A model generated the notes under the pieces. The model ran no database searches and was not told where the DNA came from. It worked only from the letters and a program-made list of their open reading frames with translations. A stretch of 64,000 bases of DNA from Candidatus Gottesmanbacteria bacterium (GTDB lineage: Bacteria > Patescibacteriota > Microgenomatia > UBA10105 > UBA927). Positions within the stretch are counted from its first letter, which is position 1; every line of letters starts with the position of its first letter. Of the stretch, positions 25,097 through 56,807 are shown in pieces. The stretch lies in NCBI GenBank assembly GCA_963714095.1, contig OY970230.1:198206-262205 (forward strand), in the 5' to 3' direction. The position numbers and the translations under genes are program-made.

Positions 25097-25120
25097 AATG
25101 AATTATTTTAAAACATACCC

Positions 25121-26980: not shown

Positions 26981-26983
26981 ATG

Positions 26984-35612: not shown

Positions 35613-35768
35613 AATAAAATTATAAATTCTCTTTTTTATGATCCTCGTAGCGTTGAGAATAATATTTCGCTATTATCGAACATATTTTAAAAATGAATGT
35701 ACGATATCTAAATAATTTGGTTATTTACAATAATATTAACTTCATCTCTGATATTTGTAGGGAAAATA

Positions 35769-36455: not shown

Positions 36456-36577
36456 AGTTAAAATAGAATATTACGCAATCACCTTGATCACTTGAATATA
36501 AAATCACCTAATTTTAATTTCGTTTTATTCCAATATCTATCGTAATAGTTTTGCATATATGACAGCTATGATAAGAT
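36456..36577. promoter_or_regulatory. AT-rich divergent intergenic region, likely holding promoters for the LbH acetyltransferase (minus) and the GT4 (plus)
   Basis: 122-bp AT-rich gap between divergent starts. It contains TTGCAT...TAAGAT and TTGATC...TAATTT hexamer pairs. Confidence 0.25.
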
Positions 36578-37765: not shown

Positions 37766-37773
37766 TAGAAAAC

Positions 37774-39983: not shown

Positions 39984-40020
39984 ACCTCGTATAATATATT
40001 TCTACCATGGTAGTCTGAAG

Positions 40021-42709: not shown

Positions 42710-42771
42710 ATAAACGGACCTGTGTTCATTTATTTCTTATTGCAAATGCTAGAATTATATACGTATCAATA

Positions 42772-43587: not shown

Positions 43588-43593
43588 ATCCCT

Positions 43594-44421
43594 TCATAAA
43601 GTTATCCTTCCAACTAAATAGCCAATCCCCAATACTCCCATTTCGCATGACTTCATAAACAACATACCTATTCCAACGAAAGGATTTGTAAATAATAGGC
43701 GAGGTTGAGAGAAAAATAAACCAAAACGGGAATGAATACTTCCCTGCCGCCGTCCATATTGTGCATTAGATTTCTTTTTCAGATATTGCGGCACTCGTTT
43801 ACCGTAATAATATTTCTTACTCAGAGTTTTAATAAGCGATAACCGTCCTTCATTATGGAAGATATATGAGGCAATTCGTCCGATAGAGTCTTTCCCGTAT
43901 CTTTCTTTTAGTCGCTGCGGCAAATCATAGTCTTCCGGTCCTGTAAGTTCTTCATCATAACCGCCGAGTTTAATAAATATATCCTTCCGGTAAAAACGTG
44001 CCGCTTCGATCCATTCAACACCTTCGTAAAAGGATCTCTCCAATGCCTTACAGTCTGACCAAAATCCGGCACCGACCGATCGCTCGGGAATAATAACGGC
44101 AGTGTATTTATTCGTTAGCACTGTTTTAACACACTCCAGAACAATATTGGGTGATAATATCATGTCGGCGTCTACGAAAAGAAGATAGTCTCCTTTTGCC
44201 TTTTTTGCACCAAAATTACGCTGGGCAGACCGTTCCGGCCCCCTATCATAGACCAAAGCATCCAGTTCTTCCGCTATATTTTTTGTCCCGTCTGAAGATG
44301 CATTATCTACAACTATCAATTCAATGAACTGATATGATTGTTTTTGTATACTGGAAAGGCATGCGCGAATATTAGCTTCCTCATTACGCGTTGTAACAAT
44401 GACAGATACGAGTGTTTTCAT
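43594..44421 (-). CDS. Glycosyltransferase family 2
   Basis: MKTLVSVIVTTRNEE...ELIVVDNASSDGT. Start set at the internal ATG, which is preceded by AAGGAAA. The longer ORF to 44670 looks like a spurious extension. Confidence 0.7.
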   Translation of the reverse strand: MKTLVSVIVTTRNEEANIRACLSSIQKQSYQFIELIVVDNASSDGTKNIAEELDALVYDRGPERSAQRNFGAKKAKGDYLLFVDADMILSPNIVLECVKTVLTNKYTAVIIPERSVGAGFWSDCKALERSFYEGVEWIEAARFYRKDIFIKLGGYDEELTGPEDYDLPQRLKERYGKDSIGRIASYIFHNEGRLSLIKTLSKKYYYGKRVPQYLKKKSNAQYGRRQGSIHSRFGLFFSQPRLLFTNPFVGIGMLFMKSCEMGVLGIGYLVGRITL

Positions 44422-45010: not shown

Positions 45011-46979
45011 CACGAATAGAAATATCTTTCCATTGACATGTGCCGAGATTCTGTTGAAATATCCGGATACCCTGAAGTTCCTCTCCTGCAAATTGTTCTA
45101 CTGCGCGTGAATCGGGATAGACATTTAGTTCACCGGCAAAATCCGCCGGTTGTTCAGAAAAACGATACCACGTAGTGCCGTCCGAGGAACCAAAAATATA
45201 CGCACTTGCGATAGGGTACGCACATTCGGGCTTAACAAAGTTAAACTCAATTCTTTTCACCCTGTTTTGCTTTTCCATACGCAATTCCAACAGATCAGAC
45301 GCCTTTTCCGTCACCTCAAACTTCTCATTTCTTTCATGGGTCATATCTACGCCGTGCGCAAGATGCAACGGGTCGTTTTTCCATATATACAGAAGCGGAA
45401 CACCATCAATCTGAACCGTATAAACCGGAGTGAGCATATTACGCAGAAAACGCATCCGGAAAAAATCATTGACGTTCAAACCCGGATATGTCAATTCCAT
45501 TACATATTCTCCTTGTTGCGCATAGAGGTCGGAATTCGTACCCACGAGGACTAAATCGTTCCGAAAATAGACCGTTGGAACCGCCGAAAAAATTGCGGTA
45601 CCGAGAGCTATCTTTGATCCGAGTTCGGCATGAGCATTAATCCAAAGAGCTCCCTGTTTATATGCATTTCCATACGTATTATTTGCGCCATCCAAACCAT
45701 ATTTCATGGCGCCGGGTAATCCTCCGATGAGTGCGTTATAATACACGTTTTCGTTCGGATGTAATTGAACCATTGTATAGATAATCGGTATATATCCCGA
45801 AATCGCAATCAGAATAATGATCTGCCGTATCGCCCGCCTTTTTTGCAATCGCATAACATGTTCAACTGCTACTCCACAAAGGAGTGATAAGGGGATCATA
45901 TACTCCATAATTTGACGCAGGCTGCCGCCATATAAATACTCGAGGGGAATTGTTGCCCGACCTACTGTAACAAAAATCCAAAGTAACCAAAGAAAAACCG
46001 CGCTGCTTTTACCGAAAGCATATTTCCAGCCAATAACACTCCCCGTCAAAAAAAACAGAAGCGTCGGAATTGGCATCGACGTGCATAACACTACTATGGT
46101 ATTCCAGTCTGAACAATGCACGAACCAGGGAATCGTACCAAAATAATATCCGCAGCTATTTGCGGCATTGGATACTCCCAAATAATACTGAATTACCTGG
46201 AATGTCTTCTGAATCGGCGATGACCACAATGCCGGATACGATATGAAAAACATCCCATATGCAATAATCGGAATAACGATACAGGAGGTAATAACTATCC
46301 GCCGGAGCGGTTTTTTCTCCCACCACCTCAGGGATATAAACCACGGAATGAGAATAAATACAGAAAATACTATATTGAACTTGGTCCCGAGGGATAATCC
46401 GAAAAAAATTGCCGAAACGAAAACCGGCCAATATTTTTTGTATTCAACGGCGAACCATAGAAAAAATAGCGCACCTGTATAATATGAAGCAACCAACGGA
46501 TCCTTAATATTAAAATGCTGTTCGGCAAACAACAGCGGCAACGTGATTAAGGAACACACCGAAAAAAAAGACGCTACAGGACCAAAAACCAGATATGACC
46601 AGCATCCGACTAGGACGACCATGAAGAGAGTCATAAGCAAAACATACACTTCATAGCTTTCAATATCTCCGACTAATCCAAATTTACCCCACAGAATTCT
46701 GTTTGTTGCCGCCATCAAAATGTCAGAAAGCGGCGGGTGACCAATAGTCATTTTCGTCGTCCATGCCCAATCTAACGGACTATTCTGGTAATAACTTAAC
46801 CTTTTGGATTTGAGATCAGGCTTGTCAGTTTTACCAGTTTCAAAAAATCGTAAATAGATATTTCCCCGGACCAAATGCTGATACGTGTCCCAATTTACAC
46901 CGTAATCGTAGATGGTTTTAAACGATAATACGGAAAAAACCGCGATAAGGAAGAGTGTCGGAAATATTCGCCATTTCAT
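44994..46979 (-). CDS. Polytopic membrane protein with a C-terminal extracytoplasmic domain, candidate GT-C-like
   Basis: GVNWDTYQHLVRGNIYL motif after TM1 and more than 12 TM segments. Start placed at the ATG that forms an ATGA overlap with the upstream stop. The longest ORF runs to 46997. Confidence 0.45.
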   Translation of the reverse strand: MKWRIFPTLFLIAVFSVLSFKTIYDYGVNWDTYQHLVRGNIYLRFFETGKTDKPDLKSKRLSYYQNSPLDWAWTTKMTIGHPPLSDILMAATNRILWGKFGLVGDIESYEVYVLLMTLFMVVLVGCWSYLVFGPVASFFSVCSLITLPLLFAEQHFNIKDPLVASYYTGALFFLWFAVEYKKYWPVFVSAIFFGLSLGTKFNIVFSVFILIPWFISLRWWEKKPLRRIVITSCIVIPIIAYGMFFISYPALWSSPIQKTFQVIQYYLGVSNAANSCGYYFGTIPWFVHCSDWNTIVVLCTSMPIPTLLFFLTGSVIGWKYAFGKSSAVFLWLLWIFVTVGRATIPLEYLYGGSLRQIMEYMIPLSLLCGVAVEHVMRLQKRRAIRQIIILIAISGYIPIIYTMVQLHPNENVYYNALIGGLPGAMKYGLDGANNTYGNAYKQGALWINAHAELGSKIALGTAIFSAVPTVYFRNDLVLVGTNSDLYAQQGEYVMELTYPGLNVNDFFRMRFLRNMLTPVYTVQIDGVPLLYIWKNDPLHLAHGVDMTHERNEKFEVTEKASDLLELRMEKQNRVKRIEFNFVKPECAYPIASAYIFGSSDGTTWYRFSEQPADFAGELNVYPDSRAVEQFAGEELQGIRIFQQNLGTCQWKDISIRVIGFP

Positions 46980-47680
46980 ATTTTTTGCATACAGCAATAA
47001 ATATTGGTAAACCCCCGTTCCTTTTGATATTCCTCGTCCAATTTTCGCTCAAAAAATCGGGCGAAAAATGGGGATCTGCGGAAAATCCATTTTGATATAT
47101 AAAGATTTAAAATCCAGGCTGTTTCCCACCATGCACCGGCACATTGGATTTTAACAATCTTCATGCCTGACCCCCGGACATACGCGATAATCGAACCTAC
47201 CGTATAATGCCTGTGGCCAGTTAACCAAAACGCCGGATCCAATAACGTGCTAATAATAAACCGGTGCGGCGTAGAAATATAACACGCACCACCCCGTTTC
47301 AGTACGCGGGAAATCTCCCGAAACATTATATATTCCGTTCCTTTTGGAATGTGCTCGAGAACTTCCCACGATACGACTGTATCAAACGAACGTTTTGGAA
47401 AAGGTATTACTGTGGCGCTGCCGACGATAAAATGAATTTTTTTGTCATAAATAGACCGCTTCGCCGTACGAAAATCTTCCTCAGTCAACTCAGTTCCCAC
47501 GATAGATCGGACGTTATTTTTTTTCGCAAATACCTCAAACCACCCATACCCGCAGCCGATATCGAGAACTTTTTTATATGTTATATCACCGATCCGTACA
47601 AAAGAAGCCGTAAAACGCAGACGTTCATGAAGCGGAGCATATGGCGATACCTTGGTGATATTTTTCATACAGGGCGACAA
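46976..47680 (-). CDS. Class I SAM-dependent methyltransferase
   Basis: VLDIGCGYGWF (motif I)...VVSWEVLEHIP. The start codon at 47680 is TTG. An in-frame ATG lies at 47668. Confidence 0.7.
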   Translation of the reverse strand: MSPCMKNITKVSPYAPLHERLRFTASFVRIGDITYKKVLDIGCGYGWFEVFAKKNNVRSIVGTELTEEDFRTAKRSIYDKKIHFIVGSATVIPFPKRSFDTVVSWEVLEHIPKGTEYIMFREISRVLKRGGACYISTPHRFIISTLLDPAFWLTGHRHYTVGSIIAYVRGSGMKIVKIQCAGAWWETAWILNLYISKWIFRRSPFFARFFERKLDEEYQKERGFTNIYCCMQKI

Positions 47681-47720: not shown

Positions 47721-49031
47721 TTATCGCAGGTTTTGTAATCGGAAAAATGATTCCAATGTTTTTTCTATATATCCGATCATTTGAACTGTAATACCGGGCC
47801 AGACTCCTATCCAAAATCCGTAATTCATAACCGTGTCTGAATTTTTCATAGATCCGGAAATACGTATATCTTTTCTACCGATATAGGCGGGGTGACGAAG
47901 AAGGTTTCCGGCAAACAGATTTCGGGTCCCGATGTTATGTTCCTCCAAATACTTGACCAATTCCAGCCGTGTAAATGGCGCAGTATCTTTGACAACCAGC
48001 ATAAATCCGAACCAGCAGGGGTCAGAGACCGGATCCCACTCGGGCAAAATAAAATATTTCTCATATTTTTTGAAAAAATCATATAGAAGGGTGAAATTTC
48101 TCTTACGCTTTTTTATAAATACGGGAAGTTTTTTTAACTGGGCAACGCCGATAGCCGCCTGAAAATCAGTCAGCTTGAGATTGTAACCGATTTGAGAATA
48201 AATATATTTATGATCGTATCCTTTCGGCAGTTCCCCAAGCTGCCAGCCAAAACGCCGTTTGCATGTATTGTCCTTCCCCGTATCGCACCAGCAATCCCTC
48301 CCCCAATCACGGAACTGACGCAGAGCCTTATGAATCAGAGGATTATTCGTCACAATCGCCCCGCCTTCGCCCATGGTAATCTGATGTGCCGGATAAAAAG
48401 AAAAGGTCCCGATATGGCCAAACGTGCTTAACTTTTTGCCCTGATATGTCGATCCGAGCCCGTCGCAGCAATCCTCAATAAACCATAGATTATACTTCAC
48501 TACGAGCCGCATAATGCCCTCTATGGGCAAAGGATTCCCGAGGGTATGTGCAAGCATGATAACCCTTGTTTTCTTCGTTATAGCCTGTTCTATAGCCTCA
48601 CACGTAGGATTTCTTGTCCCCAAATCAACATCTACGAATACCGGCACGCATTTATTCTGAATAATAGGATTAACGGTCGTCGGAAAGGCACACGCTGCGG
48701 CGATGATTTCATCTCCCGGCTTGAGTGCTTTTTTGCCGAATACGGAAGACGTGAGGGCGGTCAATGCCAGCAAGTTGGCGGAAGATCCGGAATTTACCAG
48801 TGTTACGTATCGTATGCCGAGATACGAAGCAAAATTCTTTTCAAACTTTTTGGCAAACTCCCCCTCCGTCCACCACCCGTCCAGCACTGCTTCCGCACCA
48901 CTGAGCAATTCCTGTTGGTCAAACACTTTCCCGGAAACCGGTACTGAAGACTTTCCGGGTTTAAATGGACGGGTGGAATATTTCTGACGTGCGTATGAAC
49001 GAATTAGCCCTGCAATATTTGCTGGCATCAT
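47721..49031 (-). CDS. ddhC: CDP-6-deoxy-D-xylo-4-hexulose 3-dehydrase (E1, DdhC/RfbH-like), PMP-dependent with a [2Fe-2S] motif
   Basis: DegT-family fold. The active-site position has His (SFYPAHQITMGEGG) instead of Lys. A Cys cluster (DCWCDTGKDNTCKRRF) matches the E1 iron-sulfur motif. Confidence 0.75.
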   Translation of the reverse strand: MMPANIAGLIRSYARQKYSTRPFKPGKSSVPVSGKVFDQQELLSGAEAVLDGWWTEGEFAKKFEKNFASYLGIRYVTLVNSGSSANLLALTALTSSVFGKKALKPGDEIIAAACAFPTTVNPIIQNKCVPVFVDVDLGTRNPTCEAIEQAITKKTRVIMLAHTLGNPLPIEGIMRLVVKYNLWFIEDCCDGLGSTYQGKKLSTFGHIGTFSFYPAHQITMGEGGAIVTNNPLIHKALRQFRDWGRDCWCDTGKDNTCKRRFGWQLGELPKGYDHKYIYSQIGYNLKLTDFQAAIGVAQLKKLPVFIKKRKRNFTLLYDFFKKYEKYFILPEWDPVSDPCWFGFMLVVKDTAPFTRLELVKYLEEHNIGTRNLFAGNLLRHPAYIGRKDIRISGSMKNSDTVMNYGFWIGVWPGITVQMIGYIEKTLESFFRLQNLR

Positions 49032-49954
49032 ATATTTTTCTTCAAAATCGACTGAATTGTTTCTATAATTTGGTTGACAGTCAAACCGTTGGCCTCTCTC
49101 ATATATTCCTGCAAACCCATACCTTTCGTAAACCTATCGGGTACACCGATTCGCCTGAAAGGAATTGCATTACCGTGTTCCGCGAGTATTTCCGATACTG
49201 CGCTTCCTAATCCTCCGATTACACTGTGTTCCTCCAAAGTAAATATCGCTTTCGTGTATTTTGCGGAATCCAAAATCAATTGCTGATCTATGGGTTTTAT
49301 TGTATGCATACTGATCAACCGTCCCTGCATTCCCTGAATGGCAAGTTTCTCAACCACATCTATACCGCGTGCGACAAGCGTTGATGTTGCAATAAGACAA
49401 TAGTCCTTTCCTTTCCTCAGGATAATACCCTTACCAATTTTAAAATGCGGCGGCTTATCATACAAACGAGGTTCTCCGGCTTTCCCGATCCGCAGATAGA
49501 CGGGACCTTTGTGCATCAAGGCGGCCCGCGTCGCTAGCTCCGCCTCTATCGGATCTGCCGGGCAGACTATTGTCATGTTCGGGAGGGTTCGCATTATACC
49601 GATATCTTCCAGACTATGATGTGTATGTCCGTAGGGACCGTATGCGAATCCCGCCCCAACACCGACAATTTTAACATTCAAATTTTGATAGCAAATATCA
49701 TTCCTCACCTGTTCAAAATTCCGCATGGTAACAAACGGAATAATAGAATAGATAATAGGAATTTTTCCCTCAAGCGCCATACCCGCCGCGACCCCTGTCA
49801 TGTTCTGCTCGGCAATCCCCATATTAATATATTGCCGGGGCACCTCATGAATATACTTTTCAAAAACGGAATATCCCAAATCTCCTGTAAGCAGGATGAT
49901 CCGTCTATCTTGTTTTGCCAACTGAAGTATCGTTTTCGTAAATGCTATTCTCAT
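49028..49954 (-). CDS. Transketolase, C-terminal (pyrimidine-binding) subunit
   Basis: GIAEQNMTGVAAGMALEG is the transketolase Pyr-domain signature. ATGA overlap with ddhC. Confidence 0.8.
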   Translation of the reverse strand: MRIAFTKTILQLAKQDRRIILLTGDLGYSVFEKYIHEVPRQYINMGIAEQNMTGVAAGMALEGKIPIIYSIIPFVTMRNFEQVRNDICYQNLNVKIVGVGAGFAYGPYGHTHHSLEDIGIMRTLPNMTIVCPADPIEAELATRAALMHKGPVYLRIGKAGEPRLYDKPPHFKIGKGIILRKGKDYCLIATSTLVARGIDVVEKLAIQGMQGRLISMHTIKPIDQQLILDSAKYTKAIFTLEEHSVIGGLGSAVSEILAEHGNAIPFRRIGVPDRFTKGMGLQEYMREANGLTVNQIIETIQSILKKNI

Positions 49955-50784
49955 ACTGCTTCCAAATCCTTTAATGCTTTATCAAACTCCTTTTCCGTCG
50001 GAGCTTTATACTGGGACGAAACTGTGCCTATATACCTGGCTACACCCCCAAGACCTTTTATCGTATGAGCGATAATTACCGATGGCTTTCCGTTTCGGAA
50101 TGGAAGAGTTCTAAACGTTTGGATAACTTTCTTAATATTATGCCCGTCTACCTCCGCGACTTCCCAATCAAAACTTTGCCATTTTTCTTTCAACGGTTCC
50201 AGATCTAACACATCTTTGGTGAATCCGAAGCCCTGCAGCTTATTATAATCGACGATAGCAATAAGGTTATCCAGCTTATGATATCCGGCAAACAATATAG
50301 CTTCCCATGTAGAACCTTCATCACATTCACCGTCGGACAGTACAGCGAATACTCGATAAGCCTTTTTATCCTGTTTCCCTACCCACGCCATTCCTGCAGC
50401 CATGGGTAACCCGTGGCCCAGAGAACCGGACGAAATTTCAATACCCGCGATACCTCGTACCGAATGTCCCGGCAATAATCCGCCGTCATGCTCATAGCCT
50501 TTCAACAGTTTTTTATCAAAGAAGCCACGTTCTGCAAGTACGGCATACAGAGCTTTAGCGTCATGCGCTTTGCTGAATACCAGCCTGTCCCGACGTGGAT
50601 TCACCGGATCGCCGGGATATACCTTCATTATCCGAAAATACAACGCTACCAAAATTTCCACACACGATAGCGCGCCGCCCGTATGTGCACTCTGAGCCAG
50701 ATAGCTCATCGTCAGAATATCCCGACGGATATCTCTTGCAATAGTTTCTAACGTTTTTCTTTTACTACGGGTAATTGTTCTCAT
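49951..50784 (-). CDS. Transketolase, N-terminal (ThDP-binding) subunit
   Basis: SAHTGGALSCVEIL...GSLGHGL...SDGECDEG is the ThDP/PP-domain motif. First ATG is used. The track ORF starts at TTG (50796). Confidence 0.8.
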   Translation of the reverse strand: MRTITRSKRKTLETIARDIRRDILTMSYLAQSAHTGGALSCVEILVALYFRIMKVYPGDPVNPRRDRLVFSKAHDAKALYAVLAERGFFDKKLLKGYEHDGGLLPGHSVRGIAGIEISSGSLGHGLPMAAGMAWVGKQDKKAYRVFAVLSDGECDEGSTWEAILFAGYHKLDNLIAIVDYNKLQGFGFTKDVLDLEPLKEKWQSFDWEVAEVDGHNIKKVIQTFRTLPFRNGKPSVIIAHTIKGLGGVARYIGTVSSQYKAPTEKEFDKALKDLEAV

Positions 50785-50921
50785 CTTCAGTATCAATATA
50801 ATAATTATTTATCGTTTTACGCATGATCAACCTCACTATACTTTTTTAAACCCTGCATTCGTTTCAGAAACATTTTCCTCTTCGTTCTATCAGGGGATGC
50901 ACGCTTCTCTGCTTTTCTTCG

Positions 50922-52034
50922 TTACCGATATCGAATAAGTTTTGTGAGCTTCTCACAAATGAATGCAACGTCCGATTCTGTTATATCGGCGGCAGACGGC
51001 AGGTTGAATCCATATTTCTCTACTTTTGCGGCTTCAGGATTAGGGAATCGGCGCTCGTACATGGGAAATCCGCTCATCCGGGGAAACGCGACCCTTCCAT
51101 GAATATTCCATCGTTCCAATTTACTTACCAAATCCTTATTGGATATTTTTTTTGAAGTGAGTAAAGCGGAGGGATATGCGTAATTACTGCGGCATCCGGG
51201 CCTTTCTTTAATGAGTTTTAATTCATGTACATCTTTCAGCCGTGAGTAATACCAGCCGAATATTCTCCGTTTTTTTGCAACGAGTTCTTCTATGCGCTCG
51301 ACCTGAGCAAGCGCCAGGGCTGCTGTCACATTTGCCATTTGATATTCATATCCCAGTGAATCACACCAAAAATTGAATTTCCTATTCGTTCTGCCCATGT
51401 TACTGAAAAGAATAGCTTTATCAAGGTATGCCTTATTATTTGTAATAAACATCCCGCCTTCACCAGAAACGGCGATTTTTGCCCCATGAAATGAATAGGC
51501 GCCGACGTCACCGAACGTGCCCACTTTCTTTCCTTTATATAAGGAGCCGAGCGAAGGAGCCGCATCTTCAATAACTTTAAGTTTATACTTTCCGGCAATT
51601 CGCATTATTTCATCCATTTCCGCCGGATGCCCGAAGGTATGAACGAGCATAATACCTTTCGTCTTTTTTGTAATTGCGCGTTCTACGGCTTTGGGATCAA
51701 TACACCATGTATCAGGATCAATATCAACAAATACAGGAGTTGCACCCGTATATGCGATCACGTGAGCGGTTGCGGCCCAACTGGTATCCACACATATTAC
51801 CTCGTCACCTTTTTGAAAACCGCAGACCAAACATGCAAGATGGAGTGAATGTGTTGCACAAAAACCGGCTAAAGAATACTTCGCACCGGTATAGTCACAC
51901 ATACGTTTTTCTAGTTTCTTTATATGCTTGTCAAATGTTGAGTACCACCCTGTCTTAACAGCATCGACAACATAATCAACTTCTTTTTGAGTCATCGATG
52001 GACCTGCAAAACTAATCCTTTTATATTTTTTCAT
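50922..52034 (-). CDS. DegT/DnrJ/EryC1-family PLP-dependent sugar aminotransferase
   Basis: Catalytic Lys is retained (YSFHGAKIAVSGEGG). Confidence 0.75.
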   Translation of the reverse strand: MKKYKRISFAGPSMTQKEVDYVVDAVKTGWYSTFDKHIKKLEKRMCDYTGAKYSLAGFCATHSLHLACLVCGFQKGDEVICVDTSWAATAHVIAYTGATPVFVDIDPDTWCIDPKAVERAITKKTKGIMLVHTFGHPAEMDEIMRIAGKYKLKVIEDAAPSLGSLYKGKKVGTFGDVGAYSFHGAKIAVSGEGGMFITNNKAYLDKAILFSNMGRTNRKFNFWCDSLGYEYQMANVTAALALAQVERIEELVAKKRRIFGWYYSRLKDVHELKLIKERPGCRSNYAYPSALLTSKKISNKDLVSKLERWNIHGRVAFPRMSGFPMYERRFPNPEAAKVEKYGFNLPSAADITESDVAFICEKLTKLIRYR

Positions 52035-52719
52035 ACGGTAATTTCATAACTACACTATATCGTTTTATTGTTCCTTTATAACCTTTGGGTGCATTTTGCC
52101 ATTCAATTCTATCAGATTTAACAATCCTGATCATGGGCGTCCGTTTCACTTCAGTAAAATCAAGCTTTCGGTAAAGGCGAATGGCTCTTATATTATCAGA
52201 CGTTGTAGACAGCATATACGTTTTAATTCCAAATTCAACCCTGCCCCAACATATCATATGACGTATCGCATCTTCTATAATTCCGGGGTATAAATTCACA
52301 CCACGCACAATATTATCTATTTCGCAGATACGTTTTTGAAAATTAAAACGATACAAGCCGATATGACCGATGTACCGGTTTTTTACTTTTATCATAAATA
52401 AAATCCTGTCGGGTTCATTCACAACTTTATCGCGCAACCATTTTTCGGTTCCTTCCAAGGTAACCGGGAATATTGCAGGAAACCATTGCTCATGCTTTTT
52501 TCTCCATAACGCGAGTAGTTTAATAATTTTTTTATCAGTTCTCTGGTTGTCCGTAACGAGAACTAAATAATAACGAATTTTTCTAAAAATTATTTTAATT
52601 TGTAATTTTTTTCCGTGTTTAAGCAATGAAATTTTGTCTTTCACCAAACTGCTGATATCTCGCTCCGTTAATTTCATAATCAACCTAATGCTCTGTCTTT
52701 TATTCTTTCGATATATCAA
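52021..52719 (-). CDS. GNAT-family N-acetyltransferase (putative amino-sugar N-acetyltransferase)
   Basis: C-terminal GNAT-like block (IGHIGLYRF...YMLSTTSDNIRAIRLYRKLDF). Weak. Confidence 0.45.
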   Translation of the reverse strand: MIYRKNKRQSIRLIMKLTERDISSLVKDKISLLKHGKKLQIKIIFRKIRYYLVLVTDNQRTDKKIIKLLALWRKKHEQWFPAIFPVTLEGTEKWLRDKVVNEPDRILFMIKVKNRYIGHIGLYRFNFQKRICEIDNIVRGVNLYPGIIEDAIRHMICWGRVEFGIKTYMLSTTSDNIRAIRLYRKLDFTEVKRTPMIRIVKSDRIEWQNAPKGYKGTIKRYSVVMKLPYEKI

Positions 52720-52723
52720 CTAA

Positions 52724-53686
52724 TTATTTCAAGATAGAATTATACCAGCGGCGGATTAAAGGAAGTGTGTTTTTAATCGAATATGTAGGTCTCCATCCCA
52801 GATTGATAATCTTCCCTGCATTCAAATGCTGGTACGGAATTTCGTTCTTCGCCGAGTTTTCTATAACATACGGTATTTTTCTTTTTAGTATCCTTTCTGT
52901 TTGCCTGATGAGAGCTATCACTGAACACGAGTCGCTGGAGGATAAATTAAATGCCTCCCCATTAGTTTTATCTCTATGTTCAAGAAGGAACAAATAGCCG
53001 GATACTACATCTTCAACGTAAATATAGTCCCGGACATATGAACCGTCACTTCGAATAACCAATTTTTCTTTCGTGACAACTGCTTTCATTATTCCCGGAA
53101 TAATCCGTGAAAAATTCAGATCACCTTCTCCGTAAATATTTCCTGCCCGTGTAACGACGATAGGCAAATGGTATGTTTTTGCGTATGCGTGTGCGAGAAG
53201 ATCCGTTGCCGATTTAGAAACCTCATATGGATGGTCGCCTCTCAAAGGATCCGTCTCGATATAGGGTTTCCTGCTTTTTCCGTAGCTTTTATCAGACGAT
53301 GCAACAATGACTCCTTTCACATGAGTAAAAAGTCGTGCCGCATCGAGAATATAGGTGGTACCCATGATATTAGTTTCAATTGTTTCCACGGGATTTTCGT
53401 AGGCAGTAGGCACTATTGCCTGAGCGGCTAAGTGGAAAATATAGTCAATTTCATATTTTGACACGATATCAAAAACCCGATCTTTATCTTTAAGGTCACA
53501 TGAAACAAGAACGGTATTTTTTGATAACCGTTCGGTCATGAAATATGAACGGGGGTCTAATGATCGAAACGGCACAAATACCGTTGCATGCCTCCCTAGT
53601 AAGGCTTTCACAAGATGACTTCCAACAAACCCCGTTCCGCCTGTGACCAGAATGTTCTTTCCTGTTAATCTTTCCATATTTTCCAT
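52724..53686 (-). CDS. ddhB: CDP-glucose 4,6-dehydratase-like (DdhB/RfbG-like) extended SDR
   Basis: LTGKNILVTGGTGFVGSHL...YENPVETIETNIMGTTYILDAAR, compared with the RfbG pattern EPVETYSTNVMGT. Confidence 0.7.
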   Translation of the reverse strand: MENMERLTGKNILVTGGTGFVGSHLVKALLGRHATVFVPFRSLDPRSYFMTERLSKNTVLVSCDLKDKDRVFDIVSKYEIDYIFHLAAQAIVPTAYENPVETIETNIMGTTYILDAARLFTHVKGVIVASSDKSYGKSRKPYIETDPLRGDHPYEVSKSATDLLAHAYAKTYHLPIVVTRAGNIYGEGDLNFSRIIPGIMKAVVTKEKLVIRSDGSYVRDYIYVEDVVSGYLFLLEHRDKTNGEAFNLSSSDSCSVIALIRQTERILKRKIPYVIENSAKNEIPYQHLNAGKIINLGWRPTYSIKNTLPLIRRWYNSILK

Positions 53687-54441
53687 TCAGGATTCCGTTT
53701 CCATAATGTATTAAGACGTTCCAAATCCGCATATGTATCCATCGATTGCCAAAAACCTTTATGGACAAAAAGAGATAGCTCCCGGTCTTTAACAAGCCTT
53801 TTTAGTGCCTCATGTTCATATTCAGCCGGCCGCAGATAATTAAAAAACTTTTTATCAAATACCATAAATCCGCCGTTTACCCAATCCTGTAAAACAGGTT
53901 TTTCGACAAACTCCGTTACCCTGTGTTTAACATTTTGCCGGACCATTCCGTATTTACTTTTCGGATACACGCCAGTTATGGTACCGATTGTTTTTTGTTT
54001 TCTGTGAAACTGAACTAATTGCCGGATATTGATATTAGACACACCGTCCCCGTACGTAACCATAAAATCTTTATCAGTTTTCGGGATATAATCTTTTACA
54101 CGTATTATTCTTTCACCCGGAAGTGTCCCCTCTCCCGTATCTACAAAGGTAATTTTGAAATTATCGGCGGCAGATGGGTTTTTATGAAAAATCGCTGAGC
54201 CGGATTTTGTGGATAACGTAAAATTTTGTGAAAAATATTTTTGATTTAAAAAATACTCCTTAATCATATCCCCCTTATACCCGAGGGCAATGATAAAATC
54301 ATTAAACCCGTAGTACGCATACATTTTCATGATATGCCACAGGATTGGTTTATTGCCGACCAACACCATGGGTTTTGGTTTAAACTCTGTTTCCTCCTTT
54401 AATCTGTATCCTATACCGCCACATAAAATAATCGTCTTCAT
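53665..54441 (-). CDS. ddhA: Glucose-1-phosphate cytidylyltransferase
   Basis: MKTIILCGGIGYRLKEETEFKPKPMVLVGNKPILWHIMKMYAYYGFNDFIIALGYKG closely follows the RfbF/DdhA pattern (257-aa class). Confidence 0.85.
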   Translation of the reverse strand: MKTIILCGGIGYRLKEETEFKPKPMVLVGNKPILWHIMKMYAYYGFNDFIIALGYKGDMIKEYFLNQKYFSQNFTLSTKSGSAIFHKNPSAADNFKITFVDTGEGTLPGERIIRVKDYIPKTDKDFMVTYGDGVSNINIRQLVQFHRKQKTIGTITGVYPKSKYGMVRQNVKHRVTEFVEKPVLQDWVNGGFMVFDKKFFNYLRPAEYEHEALKRLVKDRELSLFVHKGFWQSMDTYADLERLNTLWKRNPEWKIWKD

Positions 54442-54498: not shown

Positions 54499-55608
54499 TT
54501 AGATGTGTATTGCTTTATTTAATAAATGGAGACTTTGTTTAACGGCATCTGTCCAACGCAGGTTGGCTACCCACTTTCTGGCGTTTATTTGATATTCTTT
54601 ATAGTGTAATTTGTCTCTATATAATTTCACCGCCTCCCGTGCCATTTCTCGGGGCGAGCAGCTTTCGATAACCATCCCTGTTTTTCCATGAATGACAACG
54701 TCCCTCAATCCGGGAACGTTATAAACAATTGCAGGTGTGCCTACGGACGCAGCCTCAAGAACAACAAGTCCCCACCCCTCTTTCACAGATGCGTGAAGAA
54801 GAAGGTGTGCCCGTGCCATACGGTTATATTTTTCTTTTTCAGAAACGTTTCCAAAAAAGATTACCCGTTCTTTTATACCGTATTCCGTTATCATTCTTTT
54901 CAATTCATCGATATACTCAGGCTCACCGCCTCCGATAATCCATAACACTGCATCCGTCTGTTCACGCACAATAAACGAAAACGCTTTAATAACCTCCTCG
55001 ATACCCTTCATACGGACGACACGGGATACAAACAGGTATGTAGGATGTATTTCTTTATTTTTCGAGGTTATATGAAACCGGCCGTGTACGGTAATCGGAC
55101 AGGGAATATTTACGCATTGTGATCGGGGAATACCGCGGGATACCAGTTCATCAATCGTCGACGGCGCATCCGTCCAAAAATAACAGTGACGATACAATCG
55201 GAAACACCATCGTTCCAGAAATTTTCCGATGACGTTTTTGGGAAACGAAAACATATAATCCCATATTTCTCCTGCTATCTCATGAATAAAAACGACGACC
55301 GGTTTCCCAGTGAAGAGCGTAGAAAAAAAAGGAAATCCGTGCACCTCGTCGACAATGATATCAAAAGCATTCCTGTGAGTAAGCAAGTAAAATGGGACGT
55401 ACAGATATATTGTGAGTGAGCCCGCCCGCCGGATAAAACGGACACTCTGAACCGTTTCTTCTTTTTTAGCACCGGAATATGCGGCAGTGAGCCATGTCAC
55501 ATCATTCCCCGCTGCCACCCACCCCTTTGCATGCTCAAAGGTCACTACTTCGGCCCCTCCGGATTTCGGATGACGAACATCACGCCAATTAAGTATTAAT
55601 ATGCGCAT
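54499..55608 (-). CDS. Glycosyltransferase family 4
   Basis: HASVKEGWGLVVLEAASVGTPAIV is the C-domain motif. Confidence 0.75.
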   Translation of the reverse strand: MRILILNWRDVRHPKSGGAEVVTFEHAKGWVAAGNDVTWLTAAYSGAKKEETVQSVRFIRRAGSLTIYLYVPFYLLTHRNAFDIIVDEVHGFPFFSTLFTGKPVVVFIHEIAGEIWDYMFSFPKNVIGKFLERWCFRLYRHCYFWTDAPSTIDELVSRGIPRSQCVNIPCPITVHGRFHITSKNKEIHPTYLFVSRVVRMKGIEEVIKAFSFIVREQTDAVLWIIGGGEPEYIDELKRMITEYGIKERVIFFGNVSEKEKYNRMARAHLLLHASVKEGWGLVVLEAASVGTPAIVYNVPGLRDVVIHGKTGMVIESCSPREMAREAVKLYRDKLHYKEYQINARKWVANLRWTDAVKQSLHLLNKAIHI

Positions 55609-55616
55609 AATTCTTC

Positions 55617-56807
55617 CTATTTATGTCCGGCAGTAAATACCTTTATGATTGTTTGGATTTCTCCAGTCGTCAGTTCCGGATTATTGCCAAAATATAATCC
55701 TTGTTCATGTATGAGCTTCACGTTGACGCATTCGCGGAAATTACCCTTCACGTATTTGGTAAAAAACGGTTGTTCTGTCATATCGCCGCCGACAACCGGC
55801 CTGATTTCAATCCTGTTACCGCAGGCCTTTACTAACGAATCCCGGATTGCGGTTGATTTGCATATAACGGGCACGGCAAAATTTGAAATTGTATCCATGT
55901 GATCATATCGTATAGGATAGTAATCCGGCGACTGATAAATTCTTCCGGCAATTTTTTTAAAATTATTCTGCCGTTTCTTAATTATTTCAGGGAGAAATTT
56001 AATTTGAATTTGTCCTAGATACCCGGTAATTTCCGTCGGACGGAAATTATACCCTAAATCATAGAACGTATACCGCCCATAAAACGACGGGTTTGCAAGA
56101 AATTTTCTCCGGGCCGTCTGTTCCGGAACTGACAGATTTCTATCCCAACCGTGAGCCCGCACCATGATGAGCATACTCGCGAGATCACTGTTATCTGTAC
56201 AAACCGCACCTCCTTCGACTGTTGACATGTGGTGTCCAACGTAAAACGAAAATGTACCTGCCTCTCCGAAATTACCGAGTTTTTTGGCATGATAAACAGA
56301 TCCCAGAGATTCACAGTTGTCTTCTACGAACAGCATGCCGCGTTTATTGCAGAGATCCATAACTTTATCAATATCGTCACATAATCCGAGAAGGTTTGTA
56401 AGGAGAAGTGCTTTTAGTTTATACCTAGCTAATGTGTTTAACAGGGTTCTACTGGATACATTCAGGGTGTCTAGTTCCACGTCAACTGGTACCGGCTTCA
56501 GACCCAACTGAATAAGCGGCATAACGTTGGTAGACCATGTGACGGCGGAAAATCCGACCATGTCTCCTTTGTGAATTTTACCTAGATTAAGAAGGGCCTG
56601 AATAAGCGCTAAATTTGCGGAACTGCCGCTGTTGAGCAATACACAGTATTTTTTCCCCTGCCAGAAAGCAAATTGTTTCTCAAATGCTTCGCACTCCTTA
56701 CCGAAACTTAACTGTTTGGCGACCAATAAAAATTGGATCAGCTTCCGTTTTGTTTCGTTTTCTTTATAAAATGTCGATTTTATAAGTGTAATCATGTTAA
56801 TGAACAA
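55617..56807 (-). CDS. DegT-family sugar 3-dehydratase-like enzyme (ColD/E1-type active-site His, no Fe-S motif)
   Basis: The NSGSSANLALI block is paralogous to ddhC. The active-site position is His (FSFYVGHHMSTVEGG). The Cys cluster is absent. Confidence 0.65.
   Translation of the reverse strand: MFINMITLIKSTFYKENETKRKLIQFLLVAKQLSFGKECEAFEKQFAFWQGKKYCVLLNSGSSANLALIQALLNLGKIHKGDMVGFSAVTWSTNVMPLIQLGLKPVPVDVELDTLNVSSRTLLNTLARYKLKALLLTNLLGLCDDIDKVMDLCNKRGMLFVEDNCESLGSVYHAKKLGNFGEAGTFSFYVGHHMSTVEGGAVCTDNSDLASMLIMVRAHGWDRNLSVPEQTARRKFLANPSFYGRYTFYDLGYNFRPTEITGYLGQIQIKFLPEIIKKRQNNFKKIAGRIYQSPDYYPIRYDHMDTISNFAVPVICKSTAIRDSLVKACGNRIEIRPVVGGDMTEQPFFTKYVKGNFRECVNVKLIHEQGLYFGNNPELTTGEIQTIIKVFTAGHK

What the first reader, a model, noticed from the sequence alone, without database searches (positions are those of the whole stretch)
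47721..54441. CDP-3,6-dideoxyhexose (ddhA–ddhB–ddhC) module without a recognisable E3 reductase, interleaved with non-canonical partners
ddhA (Glc-1-P cytidylyltransferase), ddhB (CDP-Glc 4,6-dehydratase-like) and ddhC (E1) are all present within 7 kb. ddhC has His in place of the PLP-binding Lys (AHQITMGEGG) and a CxC...C iron-sulfur motif. In the classical pathway E1 needs the flavin/Fe-S reductase E3 (DdhD/AscD), then a 4-reductase such as RfbS or RfbJ. I see no ferredoxin-NADP-reductase-like ORF anywhere in the 64 kb. Instead the module is interrupted by a split transketolase, a Lys-type aminotransferase and a GNAT. This suggests the CDP-4-keto-3,6-dideoxy intermediate is diverted to an unusual product, for example a 4-amino-3,4,6-trideoxy or C-branched sugar, rather than abequose, paratose or tyvelose.
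Basis: partly seen in the sequence, partly recalled or inferred. Interest (0 to 1): 0.75.

Follow-up and report, generated by a model that had tools for sequence, protein, structure and literature searches.

The report
Transketolase-linked branched dideoxy-sugar gene module
This seven-gene module in an uncultured Gottesmanbacteria genome most likely builds an unusual branched, amino-modified dideoxy sugar for the cell surface using a specialised transketolase-like enzyme, and the "missing" E3 reductase is also missing next to every close relative examined, so that absence is ordinary.

Summary
On the minus strand, 54441→47721 encodes a DdhA-like cytidylyltransferase, a short DdhB-like 4,6-dehydratase, a GNAT, a Lys-type DegT aminotransferase, a split transketolase (N and C chains) and a genuine RfbH/E1. 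RfbH has His216 in place of the Lys and the exact E1 Cys-x57-Cys-x-Cys-x7-Cys motif. No E3-like protein is encoded anywhere in the 64 kb.

The missing E3 is not special. None of 85 RfbH loci outside Salmonella, from more than 10 phyla, has an E3 within 10 kb, and SpnQ is a precedent for an E1-type enzyme that uses general reductases.

The interesting part is the transketolase. It belongs to a distinct clade I call class III. This clade has lost the phosphate-binding His and the acceptor Asp of canonical transketolases. It recurs next to RfbH, DdhA and DdhB in many phyla, including cultured Methylovirgula, and is fused to a sugar SDR in Paenibacillus. It fills the genomic niche that YerE-like branching enzymes fill in about half of RfbH loci. 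The aminotransferase and GNAT travel with it and are fused to each other in two loci.

Most likely product: a CDP-3,6-dideoxy-4-C-(acylamino-hydroxyethyl)hexose. All chemistry is inferred. Verdict: new variant of a known kind, moderate interest.

The parts
53665..54441 (-). DdhA/RfbF-like glucose-1-phosphate cytidylyltransferase (258 aa)
   Evidence: It matches TIGR02623 end to end at 272.8 bits (cutoff 300.25). Orthologues of 40-71% identity sit beside DdhB and RfbH in most of the 80 genome loci. The family clusters in 55 of 81 sources.
52724..53686 (-). Short-type DdhB-like CDP-glucose 4,6-dehydratase (320 aa SDR)
   Evidence: Its best NCBIfam match is TIGR02622 at 189.5 bits, below the cutoff of 278. 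Its best PDB match is 1RKX, a CDP-glucose 4,6-dehydratase. It has the S-D-K dyad of the CDP type, not the T-D-E of the dTDP type, plus YxxxK. Orthologues of 40-60% identity are syntenic with RfbF and RfbH in many phyla.
52021..52719 (-). GNAT N-acyltransferase. The start is uncertain; the identical Logan contig aa, which equals a start at 52677.
   Evidence: Pfam gives Acetyltransf_3 and Acetyltransf_1. Orthologues lie next to the aminotransferase and the transketolase in L006, L064, L088, L089, L091, L110 and L132. It is fused to the aminotransferase in L064 and L132.
50922..52034 (-). Lys-type DegT/DnrJ/EryC1 sugar aminotransferase (370 aa, motif HGAKIAVSGEGG)
   Evidence: It matches PF01041 at 330 bits and the LegC-like model at 303 bits, below cutoff. 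Its best PDB matches are a sugar aminotransferase (7B0M) and perosamine synthases. Orthologues of at least 39% identity were found only in loci that also hold the class III transketolase.
49951..50796 (-). Transketolase-like N-terminal (ThDP/PP-domain) chain
   Evidence: It matches PF00456 and scores 200 bits to the C. hydrogenoformans split transketolase N chain 6YAK. The ThDP/metal Asp and Asn and the equivalents of donor His26, His66 and His100 are conserved.
49028..49954 (-). Transketolase-like C-terminal (Pyr + TKC domain) chain, class III
   Evidence: It matches PF02779 and PF02780 and scores 244 bits to 6YAJ. Its active-site loop reads GVGAGFAYGPYGHTHH where canonical enzymes read THAGLTVGEDGASHQ. 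The EcTK H461 equivalent is Gly, D469 is Tyr, R520 is Lys and H473 is kept. Its stop overlaps the RfbH start by 4 nt.
47721..49031 (-). RfbH/DdhC (E1), CDP-4-keto-6-deoxy-D-glucose 3-dehydrase with PMP and a [2Fe-2S] cluster
   Evidence: It matches NF011936 at 650.5 bits, above the cutoff of 423, and 3BCX at 521 bits. It has His216 and Cys189-x57-Cys247-x-Cys249-x7-Cys257.
46976..47680 (-). Class I SAM methyltransferase, a possible tailoring enzyme and not a conserved member of the module
   Evidence: Pfam gives Methyltransf_11 and Methyltransf_25. It is not conserved in the other module-bearing loci. The identical-RfbH contig L001 diverges inside this gene.
55617..56807 (-). ColD-like PMP-dependent 3-dehydratase paralogue (motif GHHMSTVEGG, no Fe-S cysteines). 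It is a neighbour whose membership in the module is uncertain.
   Evidence: It scores 210 bits to ColD 2GMS and 216 bits to the RfbH model, below cutoff. No GDP-mannose 4,6-dehydratase is present in the window.
54499..55608 (-). GT4 glycosyltransferase between the ColD-like gene and DdhA, a candidate transferase in the same transcription direction
   Evidence: Pfam gives Glycos_transf_1 and Glyco_transf_4.

Best explanation
The seven genes at 54441→47721 (minus strand) form one conserved module in a surface-glycan island of a Candidatus Gottesmanbacteria genome. I propose that it makes a CDP-activated, C-4-branched 3,6-dideoxyhexose in six steps.

1. DdhA makes CDP-glucose.
2. The short-type DdhB makes CDP-4-keto-6-deoxyglucose.
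3. RfbH, a genuine E1 with a PMP-His and a [2Fe-2S] cluster, removes the 3-OH. Its two electrons come from a non-dedicated cellular ferredoxin- or flavodoxin-type donor encoded elsewhere, as shown for SpnQ, and not from a cluster-encoded E3.
4. A specialised 'class III' split transketolase-like ThDP enzyme adds a two-carbon ketol (hydroxyacetyl) unit to the C-4 carbonyl. This creates a tertiary alcohol, the role YerE plays in yersiniose synthesis.
5. The Lys-type DegT aminotransferase converts the new side-chain ketone to an amine.
6. The GNAT N-acylates that amine.

Steps 1-3 rest on family membership and conserved catalytic motifs. Steps 4-6 and the electron source are inferred from conserved gene linkage, gene fusions and active-site substitutions.
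For: **Family assignments and motifs**
- RfbH scores above the curated cutoff and has all E1 signature residues.
- DdhB has the CDP-type S-D-K dyad.

**E3 is generally not clustered**
- E3 is absent near RfbH in 0 of 85 loci outside Salmonella by tblastn, phmmer and motif scans.
- The SpnQ precedent is described in PMC8987622.
- Clustering all neighbourhood ORFs found no conserved redox partner family.

**Linkage between the transketolase and the CDP-sugar genes**
- The full seven-gene module recurs in Gottesmanbacteria L006 and in Anaerolineales L064.
- The transketolase chains lie adjacent to RfbH in Omnitrophota, Margulisiibacteriota, Acidobacteria, Nealsonbacteria and metagenome loci L091, L095, L101, L104, L120 and L132.
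- Cultured Methylovirgula sp. HY1 has rfbF-rfbG-SDR-rfbH-TKN-TKC.
- In the reciprocal test, 14 of 21 class III transketolase loci have a DegT-family neighbour against 0 of 16 class I/II loci (Fisher p = 2e-5).

**Rosetta-stone fusions**
- An SDR::TKN fusion sits beside rfbF and rfbG in Paenibacillus cellulosilyticus.
- GNAT::aminotransferase fusions occur in L064 and L132.

**Active site**
- Class III keeps the ThDP, metal and donor-His residues. This includes the His100 equivalent that distinguishes transketolase from pyruvate-using DXPS (PMC7661550).
- It has lost the H461 equivalent (phosphate binding) and the D469 equivalent. These are positions whose mutation in E. coli transketolase opens it to non-phosphorylated, non-hydroxylated acceptors (PMC3657141, PMC5073344).

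**Niche equivalence with YerE**
- 35-44 of 80 RfbH loci carry a YerE/AHAS-like ThDP enzyme. Seven carry the class III transketolase, and only one carries both.

**Branch tailoring**
- Transketolase loci without the aminotransferase and GNAT carry an extra SDR instead. This matches the known reduced-versus-transaminated branch ketones of αKADH2 systems (PMC12247030).
Against: - There is no biochemical or glycan-structure evidence for any member of the clade.
- No transketolase has yet been shown in vitro to accept a keto sugar (PMC12247030).
- The aminotransferase's closest solved relatives are ring C-4 aminotransferases such as perosamine synthase. Direct C-4 amination therefore cannot be excluded.
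- DdhA and DdhB score below NCBIfam's curated cutoffs.
- The donor substrate is unknown. His100 conservation is only suggestive.
- The window's module has no dedicated reductase. The methyltransferase is not conserved.
- The rest of the genome, which might hold an E3, could not be searched.
- A second, ColD-like dehydratase two genes upstream complicates assignment of the 3-deoxygenation step.
Confidence: 0.55

Rival explanations
1. Two products arise from one intermediate. The aminotransferase and GNAT act on the ring C-4 ketone to give CDP-4-acylamino-3,4,6-trideoxyhexose (or, bypassing E1, a 4-amino-4,6-dideoxyhexose). The transketolase independently makes a 4-C-hydroxyacetyl-branched sugar from the same pool.
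For: The aminotransferase's best solved relatives are C-4 aminotransferases (perosamine synthases and 7B0M). AT + GNAT pairs acting on ring amines are common, and the aminotransferase has PseC/LegC-like model hits. Transketolase-RfbH loci exist without the aminotransferase and GNAT.
Against: Aminotransferase orthologues of at least 39% identity were seen only where the class III transketolase is present. Only two weaker hits (36-38%) lack it. The gene order places the aminotransferase and GNAT directly beside TKN and TKC, and GNAT::AT fusions abut the transketolase. The Gottesmanbacteria module has no reductase to finish a separate branched product.
Confidence: 0.2
2. This is the classical abequose/paratose/tyvelose or ascarylose-type pathway. 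E3 and a 4-reductase are simply encoded elsewhere, and the transketolase, aminotransferase and GNAT serve unrelated sugars of the island.
For: The window covers only 64 kb of the genome. Three further SDRs lie elsewhere in the island. A Nealsonbacteria relative has an RmlC-like epimerase and an SDR right next to RfbH.
Against: The transketolase stop overlaps the RfbH start. The same seven genes are kept together in different orders in two phyla. No RfbS/RfbJ-like reductase lies in the module. SDR19900 is GalE and SDR21133 is UXS/ArnA-like.
Confidence: 0.07
3. The split transketolase is the organism's housekeeping pentose-phosphate enzyme and merely happens to lie in the glycan island.
For: Split transketolases are bona fide transketolases in some bacteria and archaea (6YAK/6YAJ; PMC7661550). 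Its ThDP and donor residues are intact.
Against: The equivalents of H461 and D469 are lost, unlike canonical split transketolases. Linkage to RfbH and DegT genes is significant and spans phyla (p = 2e-5). There is a fusion to a sugar SDR. Acidobacteria and Alphaproteobacteria that carry it are not expected to depend on a split transketolase.
Confidence: 0.04
4. The transketolase-like enzyme replaces E3. Oxidation of its dihydroxyethyl-ThDP intermediate would feed two electrons to the E1 [2Fe-2S] cluster, in a pyruvate:ferredoxin-oxidoreductase-like manner.
For: The transketolase and RfbH are tightly translationally coupled. E3 is absent. Transketolase carbanion intermediates can be oxidised artificially (my own knowledge, not tested here).
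Against: The same transketolase clade occurs with E1-like dehydratases that lack the Fe-S cysteines (L088, L089, L092). It also occurs with no RfbH at all in Paenibacillus. Most E3-less RfbH loci have no transketolase. The transketolase has no Fe-S or flavin motif.
Confidence: 0.03

Closest known systems
Yersiniose A pathway of Yersinia pseudotuberculosis O:VI (DdhA, DdhB, DdhC/E1, DdhD/E3, YerE, YerF)
   Same: It starts the same way, with CDP-glucose, a 4,6-dehydratase and E1 giving CDP-4-keto-3,6-dideoxyglucose. A ThDP enzyme then adds a C2 branch at C-4, and the branch ketone is tailored (PMC12247030).
   Different: The branching enzyme here is a split transketolase-fold protein, not an AHAS/decarboxylase-fold YerE (no TPP_enzyme_N/M/C). 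The donor is probably a ketol (hydroxyacetyl) and not pyruvate-derived acetyl. The branch is probably aminated and acylated, not reduced. No E3 is clustered.
Classical ddhDABC + rfbS/rfbJ/rfbE 3,6-dideoxyhexose pathway (Salmonella, Yersinia)
   Same: It has orthologous RfbF and RfbH and an analogous RfbG. The window RfbH is 52.5% identical to Salmonella RfbH.
   Different: There is no adjacent E3 (present at L086:4130-5104 in Salmonella). There is no 4-reductase or 2-epimerase. DdhB is a distinct short clade, 28% identical to Salmonella RfbG.
SpnQ (TDP-4-keto-2,6-dideoxyglucose 3-dehydrase, spinosyn forosamine pathway)
   Same: It is an E1-type PMP/[2Fe-2S] 3-dehydrase without a dedicated E3. 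It works with general ferredoxin/ferredoxin reductase or flavodoxin/flavodoxin reductase pairs (PMC8987622).
   Different: SpnQ uses a TDP-2,6-dideoxy substrate in an actinomycete secondary-metabolite pathway. Here the context is CDP-glucose-derived and the setting is a cell-surface glycan island.
Split-gene transketolases proposed for miharamycin/amipurimycin and 13 Streptomyces clusters
   Same: These are two-chain transketolases proposed to transfer a hydroxyacetyl unit to a keto sugar, forming a tertiary alcohol (PMC12247030).
   Different: Those are nucleoside-antibiotic or secondary-metabolite clusters restricted to Streptomycetes, and they are not characterised either. Here the enzyme is linked to CDP-hexose (rfbF/G/H) genes in surface-glycan loci of CPR, Chloroflexota, Acidobacteriota, Omnitrophota, Margulisiibacteriota, Alphaproteobacteria and Bacillota. 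Sequence relatedness to the Streptomyces enzymes was not tested.
αKADH2 branching plus transamination in kibdelomycin/amycolamicin sugar biosynthesis
   Same: A ThDP-dependent two-subunit enzyme installs a C2 keto branch on a deoxy-keto sugar, and the branch ketone is then transaminated (PMC12247030).
   Different: That enzyme belongs to a different ThDP superfamily (pyruvate-dehydrogenase E1 α/β) and uses a pyruvate donor, a TDP-sugar and an actinomycete antibiotic context.
Carboxydothermus hydrogenoformans split transketolase (PDB 6YAK/6YAJ)
   Same: It is the closest solved structure. It has the same two-chain architecture and the same ThDP and donor residues.
   Different: It has the canonical loop THAGLTVGEDGASHQ where the window has GVGAGFAYGPYGHTHH. 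Loci of class I/II enzymes, the classes with the His461 equivalent, have no sugar-nucleotide gene context.

Membership tests
RfbH/DdhC (E1) CDP-4-keto-6-deoxyglucose 3-dehydrase | Sequence scores above the curated equivalog model cutoff | tested here: met
   NF011936 scores 650.5 bits against a cutoff of 423. Yersinia E1 3BCX scores 521 bits.
RfbH/DdhC (E1) CDP-4-keto-6-deoxyglucose 3-dehydrase | Active-site His replaces the PLP-binding Lys (E1 His220) | tested here: met
   SFYPAHQITMGEGG aligns with E1 SFYPAHHITMGEGG, placing His216 on His220.
RfbH/DdhC (E1) CDP-4-keto-6-deoxyglucose 3-dehydrase | [2Fe-2S] ligand motif C-x57-C-x1-C-x7-C | tested here: met
   The ligands are Cys189, Cys247, Cys249 and Cys257.
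RfbH/DdhC (E1) CDP-4-keto-6-deoxyglucose 3-dehydrase | Dedicated partner reductase E3 (DdhD/AscD: Fer2 + FNR-like domains) encoded with it | tested here: not met
   No hit was found in the 64 kb by Pfam, tblastn, phmmer or motif scans. E3 is also absent in all 85 non-Salmonella comparison loci.
Glucose-1-phosphate cytidylyltransferase (RfbF/DdhA) | Scores above the TIGR02623 cutoff; full-length match | tested here: inconclusive
   It scores 272.8 bits against a cutoff of 300.25, with a 1-256/255 end-to-end match. Conserved synteny with DdhB and RfbH supports the assignment.
CDP-glucose 4,6-dehydratase (RfbG/DdhB) | Scores above the TIGR02622 cutoff | tested here: not met
   It scores 189.5 bits against a cutoff of 278.45. 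The protein is 320 aa against about 357 aa for the family.
CDP-glucose 4,6-dehydratase (RfbG/DdhB) | Catalytic (S/T)-D-K dyad and YxxxK of the CDP-type enzyme; placement between RfbF and RfbH | tested here: met
   SSDKSYG aligns with TSDKCYD of 1RKX, where the dTDP type has STDEVYG. Orthologues of 40-60% identity lie between RfbF and RfbH in many loci.
Canonical transketolase (EC 2.2.1.1) | ThDP/metal motif and donor-binding His residues (EcTK H26, H66, H100, H473) | tested here: met
   The motif reads SDGE...DYN, and the His equivalents are conserved in the window and in class III generally.
Canonical transketolase (EC 2.2.1.1) | Phosphosugar/α-hydroxyaldehyde acceptor residues (EcTK H461, D469, R520) | tested here: not met
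   H461 is Gly, D469 is Tyr and R520 is Lys. The roles of these residues are given in PMC3657141, PMC5073344 and PMC7661550.
YerE-like branching lyases (ThDP decarboxylase superfamily) | AHAS-like TPP_enzyme_N/M/C architecture | tested here: not met
   The window enzyme has Transketolase_N and Transket_pyr/TKC domains. YerE-like proteins with the N/M/C domains occur in other RfbH loci. The window enzyme is therefore an analogue, not a member.
YerE-like branching lyases (ThDP decarboxylase superfamily) | Carboligation onto the C-4 ketone of CDP-4-keto-3,6-dideoxyglucose | not testable with these tools
   This needs enzyme assays. Only the genomic niche equivalence is shown.
ColD (GDP-4-keto-6-deoxymannose 3-dehydratase), for ORF 55617-56807 | His in place of Lys, no Fe-S cysteines, and GDP-mannose 4,6-dehydratase in the pathway | tested here: inconclusive
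   The His is present (GHHMSTVEGG), there is no CxC motif, and it scores 210 bits to 2GMS. No GMD is present in the window.

The most novel reading that the evidence does not exclude
Class III split transketolase-like enzymes are an unrecognised, multi-phylum family of NDP-4-keto-sugar C-branching carboligases, that is, transketolases that use a ketone as acceptor. In this Gottesmanbacteria module, together with a fused-or-adjacent aminotransferase/GNAT pair, they produce a sugar type not yet described: a 3,6-dideoxy-4-C-(1-acylamino-2-hydroxyethyl)hexose. It is displayed on the surface of a CPR bacterium, and its E1 runs without any dedicated reductase.
Probability: 0.4. Interest if true: 0.7.

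Novelty: new variant of a known kind. Interest (0 to 1): 0.55.

Why it matters
ThDP-dependent branching of CDP-4-keto-3,6-dideoxyglucose is known only for YerE-type enzymes. A 2025 review states that transketolase-type sugar branching is still unproven and known only from Streptomyces clusters. It also states that ketone-accepting transketolases would open a new class of functionalised tertiary alcohols (PMC12247030).

This locus and its relatives supply several things that make that question testable:
- A sequence signature: H461 equivalent to Gly, D469 equivalent to a non-acidic residue.
- A defined predicted substrate.
- Dozens of natural variants.
- Two cultured carriers, Methylovirgula sp. 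HY1 and Paenibacillus cellulosilyticus KACC 14175.

The comparison also shows that most environmental RfbH genes, including those of CPR bacteria, sit in branched-sugar contexts and lack a clustered E3. This corrects the textbook expectation of a ddhDABC unit. It also raises the question of what reduces E1 in organisms with minimal redox metabolism.

Tried and rejected
- **Exact-sequence lookup of the 436-aa RfbH.** It found nothing. The 435-aa form (P0001) is on one 43-kb Logan contig with the same module.
- **Searches for E3.** I used Pfam on about 57 ORFs, tblastn and phmmer with Salmonella RfbI, and ferredoxin/FNR motif scans. All were negative in the window and in 85 loci. One 4Fe-4S ORF near RfbH in L082 was not followed up.
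- **Search for any conserved substitute redox partner.** I clustered all ORFs of 80 RfbH neighbourhoods. The recurrent families are DegT, SDR, DdhA, YerE-like, GT2, NeuB-like, FkbM-like, SIS/GmhA-like and shadow ORFs. None is a reductase candidate.
- **Literature searches linking transketolase with rfbH, CDP-dideoxyhexose or O-antigen.** They returned nothing relevant. Krug et al. 2024 is not held.
- **Promoter and terminator scan of 46.5-58 kb.** Counts equal the chance expectation, so it is uninformative.
- **Colitose pathway for the ColD-like gene.** I considered it, but no GMD is present, so this is left open.
- **The 'transketolase as electron donor' idea.** I considered it and largely rejected it (see rival explanations).
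- **Not done.** I did not run structure prediction or the representative-library search, because neither would discriminate between the remaining hypotheses.

Full report
**What is there.**
The window is one long minus-strand glycan island. It holds many GT2/GT4 glycosyltransferases, GT-C/PMT_2-like membrane proteins, a flippase, SDRs and acetyltransferases. At one end lie housekeeping genes: a histidine phosphatase, GlyRS, RecO and DUF4012. GlyRS (1085-2371) is 91% identical to a Candidatus Gottesmanbacteria protein. The closest RfbH homologues are also from Microgenomates/Patescibacteria. The source is therefore a CPR bacterium.

Within the finding's coordinates the gene order on the minus strand is:
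- 53665-54441: DdhA-like cytidylyltransferase
- 52724-53686: short SDR (DdhB-like)
- 52021-52719: GNAT
- 50922-52034: Lys-type DegT aminotransferase
- 49951-50796: transketolase N chain
- 49028-49954: transketolase Pyr/C chain
- 47721-49031: RfbH
- 46976-47680: SAM methyltransferase

Several of these genes overlap by 4-22 nt.

**Checking the observation.**
RfbH is a genuine E1.
- It scores 650.5 bits on NCBIfam NF011936 (cutoff 423).
- It scores 521 bits to the Yersinia pseudotuberculosis E1 structures.
- His216 aligns with E1 His220.
- Cys189-x57-Cys247-x-Cys249-x7-Cys257 reproduces the E1 [2Fe-2S] motif.

DdhA matches the glucose-1-P cytidylyltransferase model end to end, but just under the cutoff (272.8 against 300.25 bits).

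DdhB matches the CDP-glucose 4,6-dehydratase model best but clearly under the cutoff (189.5 against 278 bits). However, it has the S-D-K dyad of the CDP-type enzyme, where dTDP enzymes have T-D-E. Its orthologues (40-60% identity) sit between rfbF and rfbH in most related loci. The Salmonella-type RfbG is only 28% identical. It is therefore a distinct short clade with the same inferred role.

No E3 is present. None of about 57 ORFs has a Fer2, FAD_binding_6 or NAD_binding_1 hit. I recovered Salmonella RfbI/E3 from an annotated record (L086:4130-5104). It finds only itself by tblastn and by phmmer at E ≤ 10, and no ferredoxin motif occurs in any window ORF of at least 50 aa.

**Is the missing E3 remarkable? 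No.**
I fetched 80 genome loci around the closest RfbH relatives. They come from Patescibacteria, Chloroflexota, Acidobacteriota, Omnitrophota, Elusimicrobiota, Verrucomicrobiota, Planctomycetota, Bacteroidota, Cyanobacteria, Methanoregula and others. I also fetched several contigs for a Nealsonbacteria homologue and an Azospirillum plasmid. Outside the Salmonella record, none has an E3-like ORF within 10 kb. Neither does cultured Methylovirgula.

Clustering all neighbourhood ORFs revealed no conserved substitute reductase. The literature already documents an E1-type enzyme, SpnQ, that works with general ferredoxin or flavodoxin reductase pairs. It also documents ColD, which needs no reductase at all (PMC8987622). 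The simplest reading is that this RfbH lineage draws electrons from non-dedicated cellular carriers. That is an inference. The rest of this genome could not be searched.

**What the 'non-canonical partners' are.**
They are conserved partners, not interruptions.
- The same seven genes recur in a different Gottesmanbacteria (L006). They also recur, in a different order, in an Anaerolineales MAG (L064).
- The two transketolase chains lie next to RfbH in Omnitrophota (L021), Margulisiibacteriota (L077), Acidobacteria (L037, L052), Nealsonbacteria (L002-L004) and L014.
- As a reciprocal test, I fetched 80 metagenome loci by similarity to the transketolase C chain. The closest relatives again carry DdhA, DdhB, the aminotransferase, the GNAT and RfbH or an E1-like dehydratase.

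Alignment of the C chains separates three classes.
- Class I is canonical, with the loop THAG..VGEDGASHQ as in the solved C. hydrogenoformans split transketolase.
- Class II keeps the His but has lost the Asp.
- Class III has the loop GxGxGFxYGxxGxTHH. The equivalent of E. coli H461 (phosphate binding; PMC3657141) is Gly. The equivalent of D469 is Tyr, Leu or Ala, and R520 is often Lys. The catalytic H473 equivalent is kept.

All transketolases linked to RfbH or DegT genes are class III. Among loci with at least 2.5 kb of flank on both sides, 14 of 21 class III loci have a DegT-family neighbour, against 0 of 16 class I/II loci (Fisher p = 2e-5).

The N chains of class III keep the ThDP/metal Asp and Asn and the donor His26, His66 and His100 equivalents. 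His100 is the residue that is Phe in pyruvate-using DXPS (PMC7661550). In E. coli transketolase, mutations at H461, D469 and R520 are the ones that open the enzyme to non-phosphorylated and non-α-hydroxylated acceptors (PMC3657141, PMC5073344, PMC7661550). The natural substitutions therefore fit an acceptor such as a 3-deoxy-4-keto NDP-sugar.

**Further links to nucleotide-sugar chemistry.**
- Cultured Methylovirgula sp. HY1 carries rfbF-rfbG-SDR-rfbH-TKN-TKC on plasmid pHY1. Its transketolase is class III and its RfbH has an intact E1 motif.
- Paenibacillus cellulosilyticus KACC 14175 carries rfbF-rfbG-(C-methyltransferase)-(SDR::TKN fusion)-TKC-(TylF-like O-methyltransferase). Pfam confirms the fusion, and the locus has no rfbH. 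The acceptor is thus a CDP-4-keto sugar in general.
- L088, L089 and L092 pair the module with an E1-like dehydratase that has the His but no Fe-S cysteines. This argues against the idea that the transketolase serves E1 as an electron donor.
- 35 of the 80 RfbH loci by motif, or 44 by clustering, contain an AHAS/YerE-like ThDP enzyme. Five of five tested have the TPP_enzyme_N/M/C domains. YerE and its relatives branch exactly this E1 product (PMC12247030). Seven loci have the class III transketolase, and only one has both. The transketolase therefore occupies the YerE niche.

**Aminotransferase and GNAT.**
Orthologues of the aminotransferase at 39% identity or more were found only in loci that also hold the class III transketolase. 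Two weaker hits (36-38%) occur without it. The GNAT and the aminotransferase are fused into one protein in L064 and L132. Transketolase loci lacking this pair carry an extra SDR instead.

A C-4 aminotransferase and a C-4 carboligase would compete for the same carbonyl. After carboligation, the only ketone left is on the new side chain. The pattern 'branch ketone reduced or transaminated' is already known for αKADH2-type branching, for example in kibdelomycin (PMC12247030). I therefore favour side-chain amination followed by N-acylation. The alternative, ring C-4 amination as a parallel branch, remains possible. The aminotransferase's nearest solved relatives are C-4 aminotransferases.

**Proposed mechanism.**
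Shown, by family membership and motifs:
- Glc-1-P → CDP-Glc (DdhA)
- CDP-Glc → CDP-4-keto-6-deoxy-Glc (DdhB)
- CDP-4-keto-6-deoxy-Glc → CDP-4-keto-3,6-dideoxy-Glc (RfbH/E1)

Inferred:
- The electrons for E1 come from general ferredoxin- or flavodoxin-type carriers.
- The class III transketolase transfers a hydroxyacetyl unit to C-4.
- The aminotransferase aminates C-1' of the branch.
- The GNAT acylates the new amine.
- The non-conserved methyltransferase may tailor the product.
- A neighbouring glycosyltransferase transfers the sugar.

**Comparison with known systems and novelty.**
The module works like the yersiniose pathway, but it is not a member of the YerE family because the fold differs. 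It contains a true E1 but lacks the canonical E3/4-reductase context. Its transketolase is not a canonical transketolase, because the acceptor residues are not met.

The 2025 review lists transketolase-type sugar branching only as an untested proposal. It covers miharamycin/amipurimycin and 13 Streptomyces sequences. I found no paper linking a transketolase to rfbH or CDP-dideoxyhexose clusters. This is absence in the searchable library only. I rate the finding a new variant of a known kind.

**Verdict.**
The transketolase/aminotransferase/GNAT association is a solid comparative-genomic lead that can be tested experimentally. Interest is 0.55.

Noticed in passing
window 55617-56807 (-): This is a second, ColD-like PMP 3-dehydratase (motif GHHMSTVEGG, no Fe-S cysteines, 210 bits to ColD 2GMS). 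It lies two genes upstream of DdhA, yet the window holds no GDP-mannose 4,6-dehydratase. Its substrate is unknown, and it might give a reductase-independent 3-deoxygenation route.
   Followed up: partly
L088:11638-12945(-), L089:6257-7555(-), L092:12720-13931(-): These are E1-like DegT proteins (37-40% identical to the window RfbH). They have the active-site His (FGSHIITAGGNGG) but none of the [2Fe-2S] cysteines. They are paired with the same DdhA-DdhB-AT-GNAT-TKN-TKC module.
   Followed up: partly
L169:7097-9004(+) (Paenibacillus cellulosilyticus KACC 14175 plasmid): A natural fusion joins an NDP-sugar SDR domain to the transketolase N chain. It lies beside rfbF, rfbG, a sugar C-methyltransferase and a TylF-like O-methyltransferase, with no rfbH in the locus.
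   Followed up: partly
L168:3964-9939 (Methylovirgula sp. HY1 plasmid pHY1): A cultured alphaproteobacterium carries rfbF-rfbG-SDR-rfbH-TKN-TKC with a class III transketolase. It is a tractable organism for testing the branching hypothesis.
   Followed up: partly
L006-L085 (80 RfbH genome loci): About half of the loci (35 by motif, 44 by clustering) hold a YerE/AHAS-like ThDP enzyme within 10 kb of RfbH, including the CPR loci L007 and L009. Seventeen also hold a NeuB-like synthase, possibly for making longer keto-acid donors.
   Followed up: partly
Class II loci among L121-L167, e.g. L127, L144, L150, L158-L160, L163-L167 (metagenome loci): A second non-canonical split transketolase-like clade (class II, loop THAGISFGQAGTTHH, lacking the Asp469 equivalent) is common in gut and other metagenomes. 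It has no sugar-nucleotide genes nearby, and its function is unclear.
   Followed up: no
window 7786-8782 (-) and 16635-18325 (-): GT4 glycosyltransferase domains are encoded as separate adjacent ORFs. One pair is an N-domain at 8261-8782 plus a C-domain at 7786-8271. A lone N-domain at 17765-18325 lies beside a full GT4. These are either split genes or frameshifts.
   Followed up: no
window 22814-31629 (-): Four consecutive large ORFs (760, 619, 580 and 986 aa) have no Pfam hit at all, in the middle of the glycan island.
   Followed up: no
window 46976-47680 (-) versus L001:6666-7184: The Logan contig with an identical RfbH matches the window's methyltransferase at 96% over only the first 177 aa, and a shorter gene is called there. 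This points to strain variation or a frameshift directly downstream of the module.
   Followed up: no
window 34000-44000 versus 48000-52000: G+C is 36-38% across 34-44 kb but 43.5-45% across the RfbH-transketolase-aminotransferase segment. This is compatible with lateral acquisition of the module, whose RfbH and transketolase relatives span many phyla.
   Followed up: no
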